NCBI GenBank assembly: GCA_029838195.1
Contig: JALGVJ010000001.1
Coordinates: 192,001 to 256,000, forward strand
Origin: Promethearchaeota archaeon
Lineage (GTDB): Archaea > Asgardarchaeota > Lokiarchaeia > Sigyniarchaeales > SOKP01
Reading direction: 5' to 3'
DNA length: 64,000 nucleotides
Shown here: positions 48 to 7,599 of the stretch, piece by piece
Layout of the letters: every line of letters begins with the position of its first letter
Position numbering within the stretch: the first letter of the stretch is position 1
The notes under the pieces: model-generated
The model's database searches: none
Told to the model about the DNA's origin: nothing
The model's input: only the letters and a program-made list of their open reading frames with translations
Position numbers and translations under genes: made by a program

Positions 48-1448
48 TTATTCATTCCAAATTGATTTTATACTCCAAGCATCTATTTTTTTAAATTTCA
101 TGGCTCCGTTTTTAACTGCTATCATTAATTTGCTTTTTCTCCTAATTTTGAAAAAATACCGGGTGGTCAAACAATAAACATGATTAAAAAAAACTTCTAT
201 TACGGAATTATCGATAAATACGTGTAGCATATTCTCTTCTTTCTTGATATCATGAGGATCAATTGAACATTCATCCTCTCCACATTGAATTTTGTTAGAA
301 GCCAAATCCATGGTTAAAAAAACCTCCCGATTAGAAGTAATCAGTTCTGATAATTTTAATTGAAAACTTTCTTTACGAGGATTCTTAAATTGGATAATAA
401 GTTCAACGCATTTATCTTCTATTCTTTCTATAATAGTAAGGGAATTGGAATCGATCGTGATGTTCTCAAGGTGTACGTGTCGTTCTCTCAATTTTTCAAG
501 TTCCTTAACGGGTCTTATGAGGAGTCGATTATCACTACTTTCTCTCAATTCTCGAGGTAACGTTAAACATCCATTCCATCCCTTGATTTCTCCGCCTCCA
601 AAAATCCACCCCCACATCAATATTCTTCCGCTTGGCTCTTTCATCGTTGCAGGAGCATACATCCACTTACCATGATCTAAAAGGTGCCATTTTCCGTGCT
701 TGAAATCTTGATTTTTCCATGTTCCAATAGTATAAATAACCTTTTTCTTTGGAGATACGGAAACAATTAATACTCGCTTCTCCTTGCCTCCTAAGGAGAA
801 AAAATTCGGGCATTCCCAATTTTTTCCTGTTTCTCGAGAACCATCTCCAAGACAAAGTATTTTAATGAATTTCCAATGTATTAAGTCGGAAGAACTATAT
901 AATAAAACTACGGGCTTTTTTAATCTTTTTTTCTCTCTCACGTGCCCCGATAAAACCATGTACCATTGGTTTCCTTCTTTCCATGCATGAGGATCACGCC
1001 AATCCCAAATTTGTAGATTTCCGTGAATCTTTAACGTCATTGTAGGATTTTTTTCATGTTTGATCCACGACACCATATCATCCGTGCTAAATGCTAACCA
1101 TTGCTCGGCTCCCGTTAATTGGTCTCTCTGGTGTCCTATACTTGTATAAATGATAGTGGGGATATTGTCATTTAGCACGCACGTTCCGGAAAAACAATGT
1201 TCTTCCCCTTTCTTATGCGATGGTTTTAGAGCAATTGGTAAATGTTGCCAAAATACTAAATCTTTACTTTTAGCATGTCCCCAATGGATATTCCCCCATA
1301 TATCTCCTTCTGGATTATGCTGATAAAAAAGATGATATTCCTCTTTATAATAAATTGGACCATTTGGATCGTTGATCCAATTTGCTGGAGGAAGAAAATG
1401 ATATTTTGGACGGTGGGGATCTCTTGATAAAAGCTTGCTAACTTCCAT
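48..1448 (-). CDS. Glycoside hydrolase family 32 (beta-fructofuranosidase/sucrase-like), no signal peptide
   Basis: GH32 catalytic motifs WINDPNG, FSG, RDP and WECP; C-terminal beta-sandwich segment (LHVFIDNSVIEVF). Confidence 0.93.
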   Translation of the reverse strand: MEVSKLLSRDPHRPKYHFLPPANWINDPNGPIYYKEEYHLFYQHNPEGDIWGNIHWGHAKSKDLVFWQHLPIALKPSHKKGEEHCFSGTCVLNDNIPTIIYTSIGHQRDQLTGAEQWLAFSTDDMVSWIKHEKNPTMTLKIHGNLQIWDWRDPHAWKEGNQWYMVLSGHVREKKRLKKPVVLLYSSSDLIHWKFIKILCLGDGSRETGKNWECPNFFSLGGKEKRVLIVSVSPKKKVIYTIGTWKNQDFKHGKWHLLDHGKWMYAPATMKEPSGRILMWGWIFGGGEIKGWNGCLTLPRELRESSDNRLLIRPVKELEKLRERHVHLENITIDSNSLTIIERIEDKCVELIIQFKNPRKESFQLKLSELITSNREVFLTMDLASNKIQCGEDECSIDPHDIKKEENMLHVFIDNSVIEVFFNHVYCLTTRYFFKIRRKSKLMIAVKNGAMKFKKIDAWSIKSIWNE

Positions 1449-2513: not shown

Positions 2514-4001
2514 TTATTTAGTAGCTTTCAACTCTTTTAATATTATTCCAAGAGTAATAATGAAAACGGCCATGGTCGATATAATCCAAATCAATTTATA
2601 GGATTCCAAGCGTATGGAGATGATGGGCGTTTCTAATTCGTAAAATTCATGGGGGGCATTTGTCTTAACCCACGTCACTCCTAAGCACCATAATTCGCAG
2701 AATCTCTCTACTGAATCAATCGTGTATACCATGACGGGAAAATCTTGTTGATAAAAAATTCGATATTCCTCATTCGTGTAGGCGTCTCCTGTATTGATGT
2801 ATTCATATCCCGTTAATACATCCATGGCATCTTTATACATGAGCATGTTCATTATTTTTTCGTTTTTAGTTGGAATCATTATCTTACTTAGATTAATTCC
2901 TGAACGAAGGGTAGTGTCCAAAATGATTTCAAAATACTCGTCGTGATAAGGATGGTCGTTGGAGGGAGATTTCATATCAAAATCGAGATAAATATCGTGA
3001 TTTTTCGTAAATTTCAAAACTTCTGCCAAAGTGGGTATTTTTACACCCCTATATGATTCGGCTTGTTCGGGAGATATGATACCAGCGGCAATGACACCGA
3101 AAGGATCTTTATCCACGAACCAAGAACCTGCATCTAATTGCTTGAGTTCCGAAATGGTGAAATTCTCAGCAGGTTCACTAACTCTATCGGGAAAAACATC
3201 CCGAATATTTGTTGTTCTCGTAAGAGTATCATCGTGCATCAAAAAGGGAACGCCATCCTTGCTGATTTGAATATCCACTTCCCAACCCACGATACCGAAT
3301 TGAAGGGCTACTTCCGCCGCGATAAGAGTGTTTTCTGGGCCTAAAGAAGCCCCTCCTCGATGTGCAATTAAATCTGGTTTTGGAGGCAAATCGCCTTCGT
3401 GGACATTTGCCGGGATATAAAAAAAGGGTGTGGCAAAGGCAAATCCATATCCGATTAAAATACACGTGATTATAATAATGCTCTTTCCTTTGGCACGAAT
3501 GATTTTATTCGAGAGATTGGCTTTTAAATGAGGTATATTTTTAAGAAGAGGGTACACCAATAAAATAAGAATTATCTGTATGGTTAGAAAAATAAAAATG
3601 CTATAAAATTCAAAATATTGAGGAATTAATCGAGAATAGCTTCCTAACTCATCAAGGAGAAAAGAGATGAGAATATTAAAAATTAACATCAAGACGAAAG
3701 GAATGAGCTTATACATCCTTGAAAGGATGAGTTCATTTCCCTTTAGTAATTTCTTGAAACTAAAGATTAAAAATATTAAGGAATAGAGCAACGGTATCGT
3801 GAAGAGAAAATATAAAAATAAGATTAGATTAAAATTAAAACCCCACCAATCAGAGACCGTTGTGTTGATTTCTCCCCAATAAGGTCTTAAAATCCATAAA
3901 AATAACAAAAATACGCCAAAATTAATCACACAAGCAAGATAAATGATAATCCATTTTTTTCCTTTTTTATTTTTTAATTTTTCAATCAGCACGATAAACA
4001 C
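2514..4001 (-). CDS. Membrane glycerophosphodiester phosphodiesterase, GDE2/GDE3/GDE6 (GDPD5/GDPD2/GDPD4)-like six-TM architecture
   Basis: AHRG..PENT, EVD, PFLMHD..L.RTTN GDPD motifs; 5 hydrophobic helices before and 1 after the catalytic domain. The GTG at 4001 lies inside a GAGGTG SD, so the true start may be GTG 3992. Confidence 0.88.
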   Translation of the reverse strand: MFIVLIEKLKNKKGKKWIIIYLACVINFGVFLLFLWILRPYWGEINTTVSDWWGFNFNLILFLYFLFTIPLLYSLIFLIFSFKKLLKGNELILSRMYKLIPFVLMLIFNILISFLLDELGSYSRLIPQYFEFYSIFIFLTIQIILILLVYPLLKNIPHLKANLSNKIIRAKGKSIIIITCILIGYGFAFATPFFYIPANVHEGDLPPKPDLIAHRGGASLGPENTLIAAEVALQFGIVGWEVDIQISKDGVPFLMHDDTLTRTTNIRDVFPDRVSEPAENFTISELKQLDAGSWFVDKDPFGVIAAGIISPEQAESYRGVKIPTLAEVLKFTKNHDIYLDFDMKSPSNDHPYHDEYFEIILDTTLRSGINLSKIMIPTKNEKIMNMLMYKDAMDVLTGYEYINTGDAYTNEEYRIFYQQDFPVMVYTIDSVERFCELWCLGVTWVKTNAPHEFYELETPIISIRLESYKLIWIISTMAVFIITLGIILKELKATK

Positions 4002-4026
4002 CTCTATTTTAATTCATGCGTGTTTT

Positions 4027-6072
4027 TTAATTAAATTTTGTAATGACGGCACAATGATCCGAAGCTATAGAACAATAAACGTGACTCGATTTTGCGTTCA
4101 TGTCAGGGGAACATAGAATATAATCGATTCTTTTTCTCGGGATAAAATTCTCATCAAAATGCCCGGTATAGCCCGCATTGCGTGCAGTATCTATAAAATT
4201 CATGGGTGAAGCTTTAATTAATTGATATTCCTCTGAGGTGGGTTCAAAGTTAAAATCTCCTAACCAGATCAGTTTGTTTTTATCTTTTTCTTGCTCGATC
4301 ACGGAAAGGATATAAGGAACTTGCACCAATCGATCTTGATGGTTCGTAGAGAGATGCGTAATGAATAATGTCCAGATTTCATTGCCGATTATGATTTTTG
4401 CTTTTATCATGGATCTAGGCTCTGTAGATTCTTTAGCTTGGGGGAGATGAATGATCTCAGCGGAACTGATGGGATATTTACTCAATAATGCATTACCATA
4501 ATGCTTGTAAAATGTATAACCATAAAAATAATACATGTCAAGATGATGAGCGAAATAGGAGGTTAAATCAACAAAAGATGTTTTCAAGGCTCCTAAATCT
4601 ACTTCATTCAATCCAAGAATGTCCGGATCGTTTTGTTTGATTTCTTCAGCAATTCTTTCCGGATCAAACACATCATCCACTCCAATTGCATTGTGGATGT
4701 TCCATGTCATTACAATTGGGTGCTCTCTTGGTGTGGATTCCGGAATCCTTTGAATGAGAAGACTCCCAAAAGAACCAATTAAGATAATAAAAATTATCAC
4801 GTATAAAACTTTAATGGGCATTTTCCAGTTCCAATTCAATAATTTTCGATTTAAATTTACCCGTAAATTCTTTCCCTCCATTAGGAAAATGAGGAAAGTC
4901 CCAATTAGCGAAAGGATGAATATATTATTTATCAAGAGAGATAGATATTCATACCACAAGAATTGGACTTGTAAAATGATGAAAAAGAAATTCGTAAAGA
5001 AAAAAATGACCAATCCATGATATAACTTTCTTCTATTCTGAAAAGAATAAAAAATAAAACAGTAGAAAAAGTAAATCACGAGCGAAAAAATATTAACAAT
5101 CTCCAAAATCGTTAAATAAAAGGTCGATACTCCAGGAATTGGCTCATTTTCTAAAATAAAAATCGCTAATAGATTTAAAATAAAAGATGCCCCTATAAAT
5201 GTGAATATTAGCTTTTTTAGAAACGATTGGGACTTAGTATTCATTATTTCATGAATAACATAGCTCCCTATAAATATCACGGCCGTAATGAGGAGAATAT
5301 AATATGTAAATCCATAAGAAATCCAATTTAATTTACCATTCGGAAGCAGATTGTTATAACTACGATCCAACACGTCATATGCCGAAATAGCCATGGGATT
5401 AAAAACCCAAGTTAAAATGAGCAGAAATAAAATTCCGAAAATAATGAAATGAACTAGGGAGATTTCTTGCCCTTTCCTTTCTTCCTTCTCAATGCTCTCC
5501 ATCCCTCGCTCTAGATCTTCTAATTTCTTAGGCGAAAACATGCTCCAATTCATGTACAATAAAAAACCTGAGAAAATAATAATTGGCATGATTTTTATGG
5601 AATCGAACGTCAAACTTAAAGATGCGTTTGCCATTAAAAAAACTAATTGAATACTCGCACCCACGCATCCTCCAAAAAGTAATGTTGAAAAGCCTCCCCC
5701 ATTCGCTCCCAATTCCATCAAATACATTAATTCAATGATGACTAATACAGAACTAAAAAATAAGATAAAATTGAAAATCATGAGTAAGGAAGAAATCATG
5801 AGAAATTGGACCACAATTCGAGAAATTACTACAAGATATATCAAAACATGGATTTTTAATCGAAAATTAAAAAAATTTTTGTAAAAAATCACCAGTTCCA
5901 AGATGATGCTAATAACTATAATAATAATCGTGGGTAAAATCGTGCCGATTCTACTTAAATTCATGAAAACATGTGCATTCGTATTTACCATGATATTGCT
6001 AAACGATTCCATGATGAAATAGAAAAGAATCGCTTGAAATAATAAAATCCGCACTTTTTTTTCCACGATCAT
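4027..6072 (-). CDS. Polytopic membrane protein with C-terminal EEP (endonuclease/exonuclease/phosphatase) domain, Cwh43/PGAP2IP-like
   Basis: About 12 hydrophobic helices, then MTWNIH, DILGLNEVD, YGNALLSKYPI, THL, LGDFN, RIDYI, SDH. Confidence 0.85.
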   Translation of the reverse strand: MIVEKKVRILLFQAILFYFIMESFSNIMVNTNAHVFMNLSRIGTILPTIIIIVISIILELVIFYKNFFNFRLKIHVLIYLVVISRIVVQFLMISSLLMIFNFILFFSSVLVIIELMYLMELGANGGGFSTLLFGGCVGASIQLVFLMANASLSLTFDSIKIMPIIIFSGFLLYMNWSMFSPKKLEDLERGMESIEKEERKGQEISLVHFIIFGILFLLILTWVFNPMAISAYDVLDRSYNNLLPNGKLNWISYGFTYYILLITAVIFIGSYVIHEIMNTKSQSFLKKLIFTFIGASFILNLLAIFILENEPIPGVSTFYLTILEIVNIFSLVIYFFYCFIFYSFQNRRKLYHGLVIFFFTNFFFIILQVQFLWYEYLSLLINNIFILSLIGTFLIFLMEGKNLRVNLNRKLLNWNWKMPIKVLYVIIFIILIGSFGSLLIQRIPESTPREHPIVMTWNIHNAIGVDDVFDPERIAEEIKQNDPDILGLNEVDLGALKTSFVDLTSYFAHHLDMYYFYGYTFYKHYGNALLSKYPISSAEIIHLPQAKESTEPRSMIKAKIIIGNEIWTLFITHLSTNHQDRLVQVPYILSVIEQEKDKNKLIWLGDFNFEPTSEEYQLIKASPMNFIDTARNAGYTGHFDENFIPRKRIDYILCSPDMNAKSSHVYCSIASDHCAVITKFN

Positions 6073-6273: not shown

Positions 6274-6846
6274 ATGATAAAAGTCGTTTTATTTAACGGA
6301 AGCCCAAGAGCTAAAGGAAATACCTTTCAAGCTCTGGAAATCGTACGCAAGGAATTAGAAGCAGAAGGTATTGAATGTGAATACATTTGGCTTGGAAAAG
6401 AACCATTATTGCCCTGTAAGGCTTGTTTTAGATGTGCAGGAAAAAAGAAATGTAGCCAAGAAGATGACAAGTTGAATGAATACGTGAATAAAATAATAGG
6501 AGCGGATGGAATAATTATCGGAAGCCCTACTTATTTTGCCAATGTGTCGTCTACCGTGAAGGCATTTATTGACCGCGCAGGTATGGTTTCCAAAATGAAT
6601 GGAGATCTTTATAAATACAAAGTAGGTGCTGCTGTTGTCGCCGTACGTCGCCAAGGGGCTACCCATGTTTTCTCTAGCATTAATTTTTTCTTCCTAATTG
6701 CCCAAATGGTCGTGGTAGGATCTTCCTATTGGAATTTGGGAATAGGACTTGCGCCGGGAGATATTCAAAAAGATAAGGAAGGTATTGAGACTTTTAAGAA
6801 TCTGGGAGTGAACATGGCATACGTGTTGAAAAAATTGAAGAGTTAA
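6274..6846 (+). CDS. Iron-sulfur flavoprotein (Isf / NADPH-dependent FMN reductase-like family), copy 1
   Basis: GSPR..GNT, Cx2Cx2Cx5C cluster motif, GSPTYF; preceded by SD GAGGTGA. Confidence 0.92.
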   Translation: MIKVVLFNGSPRAKGNTFQALEIVRKELEAEGIECEYIWLGKEPLLPCKACFRCAGKKKCSQEDDKLNEYVNKIIGADGIIIGSPTYFANVSSTVKAFIDRAGMVSKMNGDLYKYKVGAAVVAVRRQGATHVFSSINFFFLIAQMVVVGSSYWNLGIGLAPGDIQKDKEGIETFKNLGVNMAYVLKKLKS

Positions 6847-7023: not shown

Positions 7024-7599
7024 ATGGCTCTAAAAGTAATCCTTTTTAATGGAAGCTCGAGAAAAGAGGGAAATACCTATTATTGTTTAAAAATCGTGAG
7101 TGACGAATTAGAAGCAGAAGGAATCGAAACGGAGCTTATTTGGTTAGGAGAACAGCCAATTCTTCCTTGTAAGGCGTGTTATAATTGTAAAGGTAAAAAA
7201 AAATGTATTCAAGATGATGACAAGTTAAATGAATACATTAAGAAGATTTTACAAGCTGATGGGGTAATTATTGGAAGTCCGACTTATTTCGCTGATGTTT
7301 CATCTACCGTAAAAGCTTTCATCGACCGAGCAGGATTAGTCTCGAGAATGAATGGAGATCTTTATAAACATAAGGTTGGGGCAGCTGTAATTGCCGTCAG
7401 AAGAGCGGGGGCATTGCATGCTTTTTCTTCTATTAATTTTTTCTTTTTAGTGGCGCAAATGATCGTCGTGGGCTCGTCATACTGGAATTTAGGTATTGGA
7501 AGGAAACCAGGCGAAGTATTGAATGATCAAGAGGGCGTGGACACCTTTAGGACTCTTGGAAAGAATTTTAGTCGAGTTCTCAAGAAATTAAATTCATAA
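7024..7599 (+). CDS. Iron-sulfur flavoprotein (Isf family), copy 2
   Basis: Same motifs as 6274..6846 and visibly high identity to it. Confidence 0.92.
   Translation: MALKVILFNGSSRKEGNTYYCLKIVSDELEAEGIETELIWLGEQPILPCKACYNCKGKKKCIQDDDKLNEYIKKILQADGVIIGSPTYFADVSSTVKAFIDRAGLVSRMNGDLYKHKVGAAVIAVRRAGALHAFSSINFFFLVAQMIVVGSSYWNLGIGRKPGEVLNDQEGVDTFRTLGKNFSRVLKKLNS

What the first reader, a model, noticed from the sequence alone, without database searches (positions are those of the whole stretch)
2514..4001. Six-TM GDPD with the architecture and motifs of animal GDE2/GDE3/GDE6
Seen: 5 TM + GDPD + 1 TM. The resemblance to human GDPD5, as I recall it, extends beyond the generic GDPD core. Examples are P......DLPPKPDLIAHRG after TM5, RTTNI..VFP, AGSWF...DPF, P..HPY, and the C-terminal YT......F..LWC.GV..V.T...H......P.......Y.L.W running into TM6. 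Typical prokaryotic GlpQ/UgpQ proteins lack this layout. Inference: a candidate eukaryotic signature protein with an extracellular active site.
Basis: partly seen in the sequence, partly recalled or inferred. Interest (0 to 1): 0.78.

Follow-up and report, generated by a model that had tools for sequence, protein, structure and literature searches.

The report
Asgard six-helix GDE2-like membrane phosphodiesterase
This Asgard archaeon carries an intact full-length relative of the animal membrane enzymes GDE2, GDE3 and GDE6, but some bacteria (Anaerolineae) carry it too and the trees cannot show that eukaryotes inherited it from Asgard archaea.

Summary
Window 2514-4001 (-) is an intact 495-aa gene with five TM helices, a GDPD catalytic domain predicted to face outward, and one C-terminal TM helix.

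It is homologous to animal GDPD5/GDPD2-like proteins over its whole length:
- phmmer gives E 1e-41 to 1e-49 at 27-31% identity.
- The five-helix part alone gives HHalign probability 97%.
- The AlphaFold model matches a chordate cluster at TM 0.82 over 470 residues.

All GDPD catalytic and metal-binding residues are kept. In trees the six-TM proteins form one group apart from soluble GDPDs. That group splits into three clans: Asgard, bacterial Anaerolineae and eukaryotes (animals, an ichthyosporean, Archamoebae and a few unnamed protist contigs).

The root among the three clans is unresolved (AU p 0.53). Only 64 of 400 Asgard genomes hold the gene. Recent transfer and contamination are excluded. 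"Eukaryotic signature protein" is only partly supported.

I found no canonical GPI machinery in this genome. The likely role is an ecto-phosphodiesterase acting on membrane-proximal inositol or glycerol phosphodiesters, but the substrate is unknown.

This scan had already reached the same reading on other Asgard genomes. No paper in the library mentions it.

The parts
2514..4001 (-). Gene for the six-TM GDPD protein (495 aa, GTG start, stop included)
   Evidence: ORF list and translation. Full-length homologues occur in Asgard genomes.
3423..3953 (-). N-terminal five-helix membrane bundle (residues 17-193)
   Evidence: Hydropathy peaks and model helices. HHalign of this part alone against the animal N-terminal part gives probability 97.1%, E 7e-11, 174 collinear columns.
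2595..3422 (-). GDPD catalytic domain predicted to be extracellular (residues 194-469)
   Evidence: Pfam PF03009 at E 5e-25. Foldseek matches to solved GlpQ/GDPD structures at E 1e-12. Positive-inside rule.
3354..3362 (-). H214-R215-G216: first catalytic His and the phosphate-binding Arg
   Evidence: H214 and R215 are invariant and G216 is at least 90% conserved in the 40-sequence Asgard alignment. All three are conserved in all three clans. Coordinates checked.
3273..3281 (-). E241-x-D243: metal ligands
   Evidence: Invariant and conserved in all clans. Coordinates checked.
3231..3236 (-). H256-D257: second catalytic His
   Evidence: Invariant and conserved in all clans.
2976..2978 (-). D342: third metal-ligand position. 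It is Asp in all six-TM clans where soluble GDPDs have Glu.
   Evidence: Alignment with outgroups. Invariant in the Asgard alignment.
2685..2693 (-). L437-W438-C439: the family-specific 'LWC' motif shared with animal proteins
   Evidence: Alignment. W438 is conserved in all clans.
2538..2594 (-). Sixth TM helix (residues 470-488), followed by a short basic tail
   Evidence: Hydropathy. Model helix 465-494.
4027..6072 (-). Upstream co-directional neighbour, 25 nt away: about 12 TM helices plus an EEP phosphodiesterase domain of the Cwh43/PGAP2IP type. It is context only; a functional link is not shown.
   Evidence: Pfam PF03372 and PF23226. ESM Atlas features. Adjacency is kept only within the genus.

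Best explanation
The gene encodes a polytopic membrane phosphodiesterase of the six-TM GDE2/GDE3/GDE6 type. Five helices and a sixth C-terminal helix hold a metal-dependent GDPD (TIM-barrel) domain on the outer face of the archaeal membrane, with both termini in the cytoplasm. It keeps the two catalytic histidines, the Arg and the three acidic metal ligands, so it most likely hydrolyses a phosphodiester bond. By analogy with its animal relatives, which cleave GPI anchors and glycerophosphoinositol or lyso-PI, the most likely substrates are phosphodiesters at the membrane surface. These would be head groups of inositol- or glycerol-phospholipids, or of lipid-linked surface molecules, cut in a phospholipase C/D-like manner. 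Shown here: architecture, predicted topology, homology, fold and conserved catalytic residues. Inferred: enzymatic activity and a lipid-proximal substrate. In evolutionary terms it belongs to an old Asgard clan of a family shared with Anaerolineae and some eukaryotes. Which lineage gave the gene to which is open.
For: Architecture and topology. Full-length phmmer matches to named animal GDPD5/GDPD2-like proteins (Littorina, Acanthaster, Anneissia, Priapulus, Owenia) at E 1e-41 to 1e-49. Homology of the N-terminal bundle alone: HHalign 97.1%, E 7e-11. Whole-model fold match to a chordate GP-PDE cluster: TM 0.82 over residues 7-489, against 0.51 for the Bacillota GPDPase_memb type. Catalytic residues invariant. 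Six-TM family monophyletic against 21 soluble GDPDs: 100% SH-aLRT, stem length 0.74. The genome also holds four ordinary soluble GDPD paralogues, so this copy is an additional, specialised form. Two inositol-1-phosphate synthase genes are present, so inositol compounds are made. Activities of the animal enzymes come from the abstracts of PMC7033719 and PMC5576486.
Against: No biochemical data exist for any prokaryotic member. PIG-A, the GPI8-type C13 peptidase, PIG-M and archaeosortase were not found in this 96.6%-complete genome, so canonical GPI-anchored or PGF-CTERM lipid-anchored proteins are unlikely substrates. The PIG-M search also rang in no control genome, so that one is uninformative. 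Sequence conservation of the membrane bundle across the three clans is low: only P192, Y468 and W472 are shared. The sequence therefore gives little evidence that the bundle presents a lipid substrate. I could not check from coordinates whether the active site faces the membrane.
Confidence: 0.6

Rival explanations
1. It is a membrane-tethered scavenging enzyme. It works like GlpQ and hydrolyses soluble environmental glycerophosphodiesters (glycerophosphoinositol, glycerophosphocholine and the like) outside the cell, to feed phosphate, glycerol phosphate or inositol phosphate to uptake systems. The helices would serve only as an anchor.
For: The closest solved structures are soluble GlpQ-type enzymes that bind glycerol-3-phosphate. 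Animal GDE3 is named glycerophosphoinositol inositolphosphodiesterase, and JGI gives that name to some Asgard members. The membrane bundle is weakly conserved in sequence between clans. A glycoside hydrolase (GH32-like) gene lies nearby.
Against: A single helix or a lipobox would be enough for tethering, yet the 5+1 helix bundle and its fold are kept across three domains of life. The genome already has four soluble GDPDs. No transporter gene lies next to this gene.
Confidence: 0.28
2. Evolutionary reading A, the reader's: the gene is a eukaryotic signature protein, inherited vertically by eukaryotes from their Asgard ancestor and later lost from most eukaryotic lineages.
For: The Asgard clan is deep and diverse. 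Eukaryotic members occur in both Holozoa and Amoebozoa. A clade of Asgard plus eukaryotes is not rejected (AU p 0.53).
Against: Eukaryotes are not nested within Asgard or next to the sequences labelled Heimdall or Hod, which sit among Loki-type sequences. The outgroup-rooted tree joins eukaryotes with Anaerolineae (98% SH-aLRT, quick tree). The gene is present in only 64 of 400 Asgard genomes. No named eukaryote outside Amorphea was seen.
Confidence: 0.3
3. Evolutionary reading B: ancient horizontal transfers spread the gene among Asgard archaea, Anaerolineae living in the same sediments, and a few eukaryotic lineages. It says nothing about eukaryogenesis.
For: The distribution is patchy in all three groups. 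The neighbouring EEP gene family has the same Asgard plus Chloroflexota plus eukaryote range. Within Asgard the gene tree does not follow the taxon labels. Mastigamoeba carries three tandem copies on a long branch.
Against: Each clan is monophyletic with a long stem, so any transfers were few and old. The direction cannot be read from the trees.
Confidence: 0.5
4. It is contamination, or a recent eukaryote-to-archaeon transfer.
For: None was found. One locus labelled Nanopelagicaceae is nearly identical to a Promethearchaeia sequence, which shows that mis-binning does occur in public MAGs.
Against: Identity to eukaryotes is about 30%. The gene lies on a contig of about 291 kb. GC content matches its surroundings. 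Full-length orthologues occur in 22 of 85 Asgard genera. The Asgard clan has 99/95 support.
Confidence: 0.01

Closest known systems
Animal GDE2 (GDPD5), GDE3 (GDPD2) and GDE6 (GDPD4): six-TM ecto-glycerophosphodiesterases that cleave GPI anchors (GDE2 in a PLD-like way, GDE3 in a PLC-like way)
   Same: Both have 5 TM + ecto-GDPD + 1 TM with cytoplasmic termini. Homology covers the full length. The whole-protein fold matches at TM 0.82. The catalytic H/R/E/D/H/D set is the same, including Asp at the third metal site. The motifs LP.KP..AHRG, HPY, S..WC.GV..VTTN and P.W......Y...W are shared.
   Different: Identity is about 30%. The protein is shorter (495 aa against about 540-620) because it lacks the long cytoplasmic N- and C-terminal tails of the animal proteins. 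The Cys of the eukaryotic 'SPC' motif after TM5 is absent. It forms a separate Asgard clan and is not an orthologue of any one animal paralogue. The host genome lacks detectable GPI-anchor machinery, so the substrate must differ.
Six-TM GDPD proteins of Anaerolineae (Chloroflexota), uncharacterised
   Same: Same architecture and motifs. They are also prokaryotic and also of unknown function.
   Different: They form a separate clan with 100/100 support. The 'WC' motif reads 'WL' in most of them.
Soluble or periplasmic GlpQ/UgpQ glycerophosphodiesterases (for example B. subtilis GlpQ, PDB 5t91)
   Same: Same TIM-barrel catalytic fold and residues.
   Different: They have no membrane bundle and no TM6. 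They lack the family-specific motifs and have Glu at the third metal site. NCBIfam equivalog cut-offs are missed by a wide margin.
Bacillota membrane GDPDs with the GPDPase_memb domain (PF10110)
   Same: They are also polytopic membrane proteins with a GDPD domain.
   Different: Their membrane domain is different and placed differently. There is no PF10110 hit and the TM-score is only 0.49-0.51.

Membership tests
Six-TM GDE2/GDE3/GDE6-type GDPD family (broad sense) | Five N-terminal TM helices, a GDPD domain, one C-terminal TM helix | tested here: met
   Hydropathy. AlphaFold2 helices, pLDDT 93.
Six-TM GDE2/GDE3/GDE6-type GDPD family (broad sense) | Catalytic domain on the extracellular face, both termini cytoplasmic | tested here: met
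   Prediction only. The positive-inside rule gives K+R counts of 6/1/5/1/5/-/3 in alternating loops. There is no experimental topology.
Six-TM GDE2/GDE3/GDE6-type GDPD family (broad sense) | Sequence homology to animal members over the full length, including the membrane bundle | tested here: met
   phmmer envelopes such as 20-488 against 51-521 of the 605-aa Anneissia GDPD5-like protein. BLASTP covers residues 197-492 at E 1e-52. HHalign of the N-terminal part alone gives 97.1%, E 7e-11.
Six-TM GDE2/GDE3/GDE6-type GDPD family (broad sense) | Whole-protein fold match | tested here: met
   TM 0.82 over residues 7-489 to a chordate GP-PDE cluster in the ESM Atlas. No six-TM GDE structure turned up in the PDB searches.
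Six-TM GDE2/GDE3/GDE6-type GDPD family (broad sense) | Forms one group with animal members, excluding soluble GDPDs | tested here: met
   100% SH-aLRT and stem length 0.74, with 21 soluble outgroups, in a quick IQ-TREE run.
Six-TM GDE2/GDE3/GDE6-type GDPD family (broad sense) | Intact GDPD catalytic and metal-binding residues | tested here: met
   H214, R215, E241, D243, H256, D257 and D342 are invariant.
Six-TM GDE2/GDE3/GDE6-type GDPD family (broad sense) | GPI-anchor or glycerophosphoinositol phosphodiesterase activity | not testable with these tools
   This needs an enzyme assay. Genome context gives no sign of GPI machinery.
Orthologue of one particular animal paralogue (GDE2, GDE3 or GDE6) | Nested within the metazoan clade | tested here: not met
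   The Asgard sequences form their own clan (99/95) outside the eukaryote clan (92/86).
Bacterial GlpQ/UgpQ equivalogs | Score above the NCBIfam equivalog cut-off, and a soluble or periplasmic layout | tested here: not met
   PRK09454 scores 91 bits against a cut-off of 264, and PRK11143 scores 38 against 254. The protein has six TM helices.
Eukaryotic signature protein (ESP) | Found in eukaryotes and Asgard archaea but otherwise absent from prokaryotes, with a phylogeny compatible with vertical descent | tested here: inconclusive
   Full-length members exist in Anaerolineae. The root among the three clans is unresolved. The gene is patchy in Asgard genomes, 64 of 400.

The most novel reading that the evidence does not exclude
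The six-TM GDPD and the adjacent Cwh43/PGAP2IP-like 12-TM EEP enzyme are archaeal forerunners of the eukaryotic enzymes that process GPI anchors. They would have worked on inositol-phospholipid or lipid-linked surface molecules of Asgard cells before GPI anchoring existed. Eukaryotes would have inherited both from their Asgard ancestor, and Anaerolineae would have acquired them secondarily.
Probability: 0.15. Interest if true: 0.8.

Novelty: new member of a known kind. Interest (0 to 1): 0.5.

Why it matters
GDE2, GDE3 and GDE6 are studied as animal regulators that act at the cell surface, in neuronal differentiation, GPI-anchor shedding and vesicle release. The literature retrieved here treats them only in animal systems. 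This gene shows that the complete 5+1-helix enzyme, with its fold and catalytic residues, exists in Asgard archaea and in Anaerolineae. That gives simple prokaryotic models for the structure and chemistry of the family, for which the PDB searches here returned no solved structure. It also adds a candidate, though not a clean one, to the list of membrane-biology genes shared by Asgard archaea and eukaryotes. If the substrate turns out to be an inositol lipid or a lipid-anchored surface molecule, the enzyme would bear on how lipid-anchor processing arose.

Tried and rejected
- Literature. Six full-text searches pairing Asgard, Lokiarchaeota or archaea with GDE2/3/6, GDPD5, GDPD, glycerophosphodiester phosphodiesterase or GPI anchor found no paper. 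One search returned only the animal GDE literature.
- Protist range. I searched for more protist members with a profile of six non-animal eukaryotic sequences. It returned only 5 hits, because candidate selection by shared words was swamped. The eukaryotic range therefore remains poorly known.
- Two-gene unit with the Cwh43-like neighbour. Adjacency occurs only in this genome and one of the same genus. It is absent from the Anaerolineae and other Asgard loci I fetched. The two genes lie on different contigs in G021, G013, G005 and G010. At least 12 genomes have the EEP gene without a six-TM GDPD match at the threshold used. I therefore rejected the idea of a conserved operon.
- PGAP2IP membrane domains in the neighbour. 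The Pfam models PF23021 and PF23022 gave no hit in any of 20 family members, even at E up to 10.
- Relabelled sequences. The first tree put the soluble GDPDs inside the Asgard clade. With better outgroups and alignment they fell outside the six-TM family. I had first labelled P0259 and P0237 bacterial. I relabelled them eukaryotic because a tubulin gene lies next to P0259 and both fall in the eukaryote clan. That relabelling rests on thin evidence. I treated L026 ('Nanopelagicaceae') as a mis-binned Asgard contig because it is nearly identical to a Promethearchaeia sequence.
- Model geometry. The model coordinates are not exposed to scripts, so I could not measure how the active site sits relative to the membrane.

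Full report
**What is there.** Window 2514-4001 (-) is an uninterrupted ORF of 495 codons with a GTG start. The window is G000:C1:192001-256000 of a 4.5-Mb, 96.6%-complete genome. Its close protein relatives are named Promethearchaeota, Lokiarchaeota, Helarchaeota or Hodarchaeota by NCBI, so the host is an Asgard archaeon of the Lokiarchaeia type. GC content is even across the region, 0.33-0.36.

**Architecture.**
- Hydropathy gives five TM helices (17-35, 59-77, 99-117, 135-153, 175-193), a 276-residue hydrophilic domain, and a sixth helix (470-488).
- Lys+Arg counts in successive loops are 6/1/5/1/5/large domain/3. This is a clean positive-inside pattern and predicts N-terminus in, GDPD domain out, C-terminus in.
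- An AlphaFold2 model built on a 40-sequence alignment has mean pLDDT 93.1 and pTM 0.89, with the same helices.
- Pfam finds only GDPD (PF03009, residues 214-387, E 5e-25).
- NCBIfam equivalogs for UgpQ and GlpQ are far below their cut-offs, 91 against 264 bits and 38 against 254.

**Relation to animal GDE2/3/6.**
- Sequence search: an exhaustive phmmer search of 1.84 billion cluster representatives gave 145 hits below 1e-30. After the Asgard hits come proteins of 520-650 aa that align over almost the whole query, for example residues 20-488 against 51-521. Look-up by exact sequence identified them as GDPD5-like or GDPD2-like proteins of Littorina, Acanthaster, Anneissia, Priapulus, Apostichopus, Ciona and trout (GDPD4a), plus an unnamed protein of Owenia.
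- Pairwise comparison: BLASTP against the Anneissia protein gives 31% identity over residues 197-492 at E 1e-52.
- Membrane bundle alone: the five-helix part is not picked up by BLASTP, so I tested it separately. HHalign of the Asgard N-terminal profile against the eukaryotic one gives probability 97.1%, E 7e-11, over 174 collinear columns. Asgard against Anaerolineae gives 96.7%.
- Fold: the whole model matches an ESM Atlas cluster of chordate GP-PDE proteins at TM 0.82 over residues 7-489. The next kind, Bacillota GPDPase_memb+GDPD, reaches only 0.51.
- Solved structures: the PDB searches returned only soluble GDPDs.
- Protein-language features also place chordate GDPD5 among the nearest clusters.

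**Motifs and catalytic residues.** I aligned 37 Asgard, 23 eukaryotic, 13 Anaerolineae and 21 soluble sequences.
- RTTNV..VFP.R and AGSWF...DPF are also present in a 'near' subgroup of soluble prokaryotic GDPDs, for example from an Acetothermia MAG.
- H214, R215, E241, D243, H256 and D257 are invariant. The third metal site is Asp (D342) in all six-TM clans and Glu in soluble enzymes.
- The enzyme therefore looks catalytically competent.

**Who else has it.**
- Prokaryotic species genomes: a scan of 185,579 genomes with a profile of the non-Asgard prokaryote-like clade returned full-length matches only in Anaerolineae (Anaerolineaceae, Brevefilum and others) and in Asgard MAGs, including one labelled Heimdallarchaeota. 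Everything else matched the catalytic domain only.
- Bacterial context: two metagenomic members sit among typical bacterial genes such as MutM, TadE, a cold-shock protein and Nuo subunits.
- Asgard genomes: 64 of 400, in 22 of 85 genera, have a full-length match at E below 1e-40. They are concentrated in the window's own class, with scattered families elsewhere. Only three candidates per genome were scored, so this is a lower bound.
- Eukaryotes besides animals: Chromosphaera perkinsii (Ichthyosporea), Mastigamoeba balamuthi (three tandem gene models), Pelomyxa schiedti, one contig with clearly eukaryotic neighbours (RabGAP-TBC, RanBP1, BRF1, SYS1), and one next to a tubulin gene.

**Trees.**
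- Full-length tree: a careful IQ-TREE analysis (LG+C20+F+G4 PMSF, 73 six-TM proteins, 504 columns) gives three clans. Support is 99/95 for Asgard, 100/100 for Anaerolineae and 92/86 for eukaryotes. The sequences labelled Hodarchaeota and Heimdallarchaeota sit among Loki-type sequences, not next to eukaryotes.
- Outgroup-rooted tree: a domain-only tree with 21 soluble outgroups (quick search) recovers the six-TM family with 100% SH-aLRT on a stem of 0.74. It puts the root between Asgard (87) and eukaryotes plus Anaerolineae (98).
- Test of the alternative: an AU test does not reject Asgard plus eukaryotes as a clade (p 0.53). The constrained tree was even slightly better in likelihood.
- Reading: the gene is old in all three groups, recent transfer and contamination are excluded, and the direction of descent or transfer cannot be read.

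**Context and likely function.**
- The genome has four ordinary soluble GDPD genes, so the six-TM form is an extra, specialised copy.
- Two inositol-1-phosphate synthase genes are present.
- PIG-A, the GPI8-type C13 peptidase, PIG-M and exosortase/archaeosortase were not found. The PIG-M search rang in no control genome and so says little.
- Animal relatives cut GPI anchors, GDE2 in a PLD-like and GDE3 in a PLC-like way (abstracts of PMC7033719 and PMC5576486).
- The best reading is an ecto-phosphodiesterase acting on membrane-proximal phosphodiesters, meaning inositol or glycerol phospholipid head groups or lipid-linked surface molecules. A canonical GPI-anchor sheddase is unlikely. A membrane-tethered scavenger of soluble diesters is the main functional rival.

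**The neighbour.**
- Position and layout: the gene 25 nt upstream on the same strand (4027-6072) encodes about 12 TM helices plus an EEP domain. The loop charges predict that this domain also faces outward.
- Pfam: every one of 20 family members scanned hits PF23226, the C-terminal nuclease-like domain of PGAP2IP/Cwh43. None hits the Pfam models for the PGAP2IP membrane domains.
- Relatives: the nearest ESM Atlas clusters are Chloroflexota proteins and fungal PGAP2IP/Cwh43. A 2023 paper (PMC10704324) already shows an 'Asgardarchaeota and Chloroflexota' subcluster within the EEP group that contains Cwh43p and PGAP2IP.
- Pairing with the GDPD gene: the two neighbours thus share the same odd range. 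However, the adjacency is kept only in the same genus. Elsewhere the two genes lie apart or occur without each other. A conserved two-gene unit is not supported.

**Prior knowledge.** No paper in the searchable library links GDE2/3/6 or GDPD with Asgard archaea. Some public JGI annotations already name Asgard members 'glycerophosphoinositol inositolphosphodiesterase'. Earlier reports of this scan on other Asgard genomes reached the same verdict: observation confirmed, ESP reading partly supported, bacteria carry the gene too. My results agree and were obtained independently.

**Verdict.** This is a real, intact and well-supported member, in the broad sense, of the six-TM GDE2/3/6 family in an Asgard archaeon. 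It is interesting as a prokaryotic model and as a possible but unproven link to eukaryotes. The claim that it is a eukaryotic signature protein is only partly supported.

Noticed in passing
window 4027-6072 (-): A 681-aa protein with about 12 TM helices and a C-terminal EEP phosphodiesterase domain of the Cwh43/PGAP2IP type (PF23226, E 1e-16). Its nearest relatives are in Asgard archaea, Chloroflexota and eukaryotes, the same range as the GDPD gene. PMC10704324 has already noted an Asgard plus Chloroflexota EEP subcluster. Adjacency to the GDPD gene is kept only within the genus.
   Followed up: partly
L026 (MAG labelled Candidatus Nanopelagicaceae, DATKTW010000045.1): Its six-TM GDPD fragment is nearly identical to that of a Promethearchaeia MAG (L024), with branch lengths of 0.07 in the tree. 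The contig is probably mis-binned into an actinobacterial MAG.
   Followed up: partly
P0131, P0220, P0265 (Mastigamoeba balamuthi, EukProt): Three near-identical six-TM GDPD gene models lie within about 70 kb of one scaffold. Two appear fused to other sequence: one is 886 aa, and one is 1122 aa and annotated as a pumilio-family protein. This looks like a tandem expansion with doubtful gene models.
   Followed up: no
G021:C42:26525-29720: Two full-length six-TM GDPD paralogues lie in tandem in a genome of the same family (E 1e-221 and 1e-235 to the family profile). This shows lineage-specific duplication.
   Followed up: no
window 6274-6846 (+) and 7024-7599 (+): Two tandem paralogous genes of about 190 aa. 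From the sequence they look like flavodoxin-like or NADPH-dependent FMN reductases with a conserved CxxC...C pattern. I did not search them against any library.
   Followed up: no
window 48-1448 (-): A 466-aa ORF with the WINDPNG motif typical of GH32 beta-fructosidases. This identification is from the sequence motif only and was not searched.
   Followed up: no
window 3996-4030: The called GTG start of the GDPD gene lies inside a GAGGTG string that could itself be a ribosome-binding site. The true start may differ by a few codons. Homologues align from residues 3-11 onward.
   Followed up: partly
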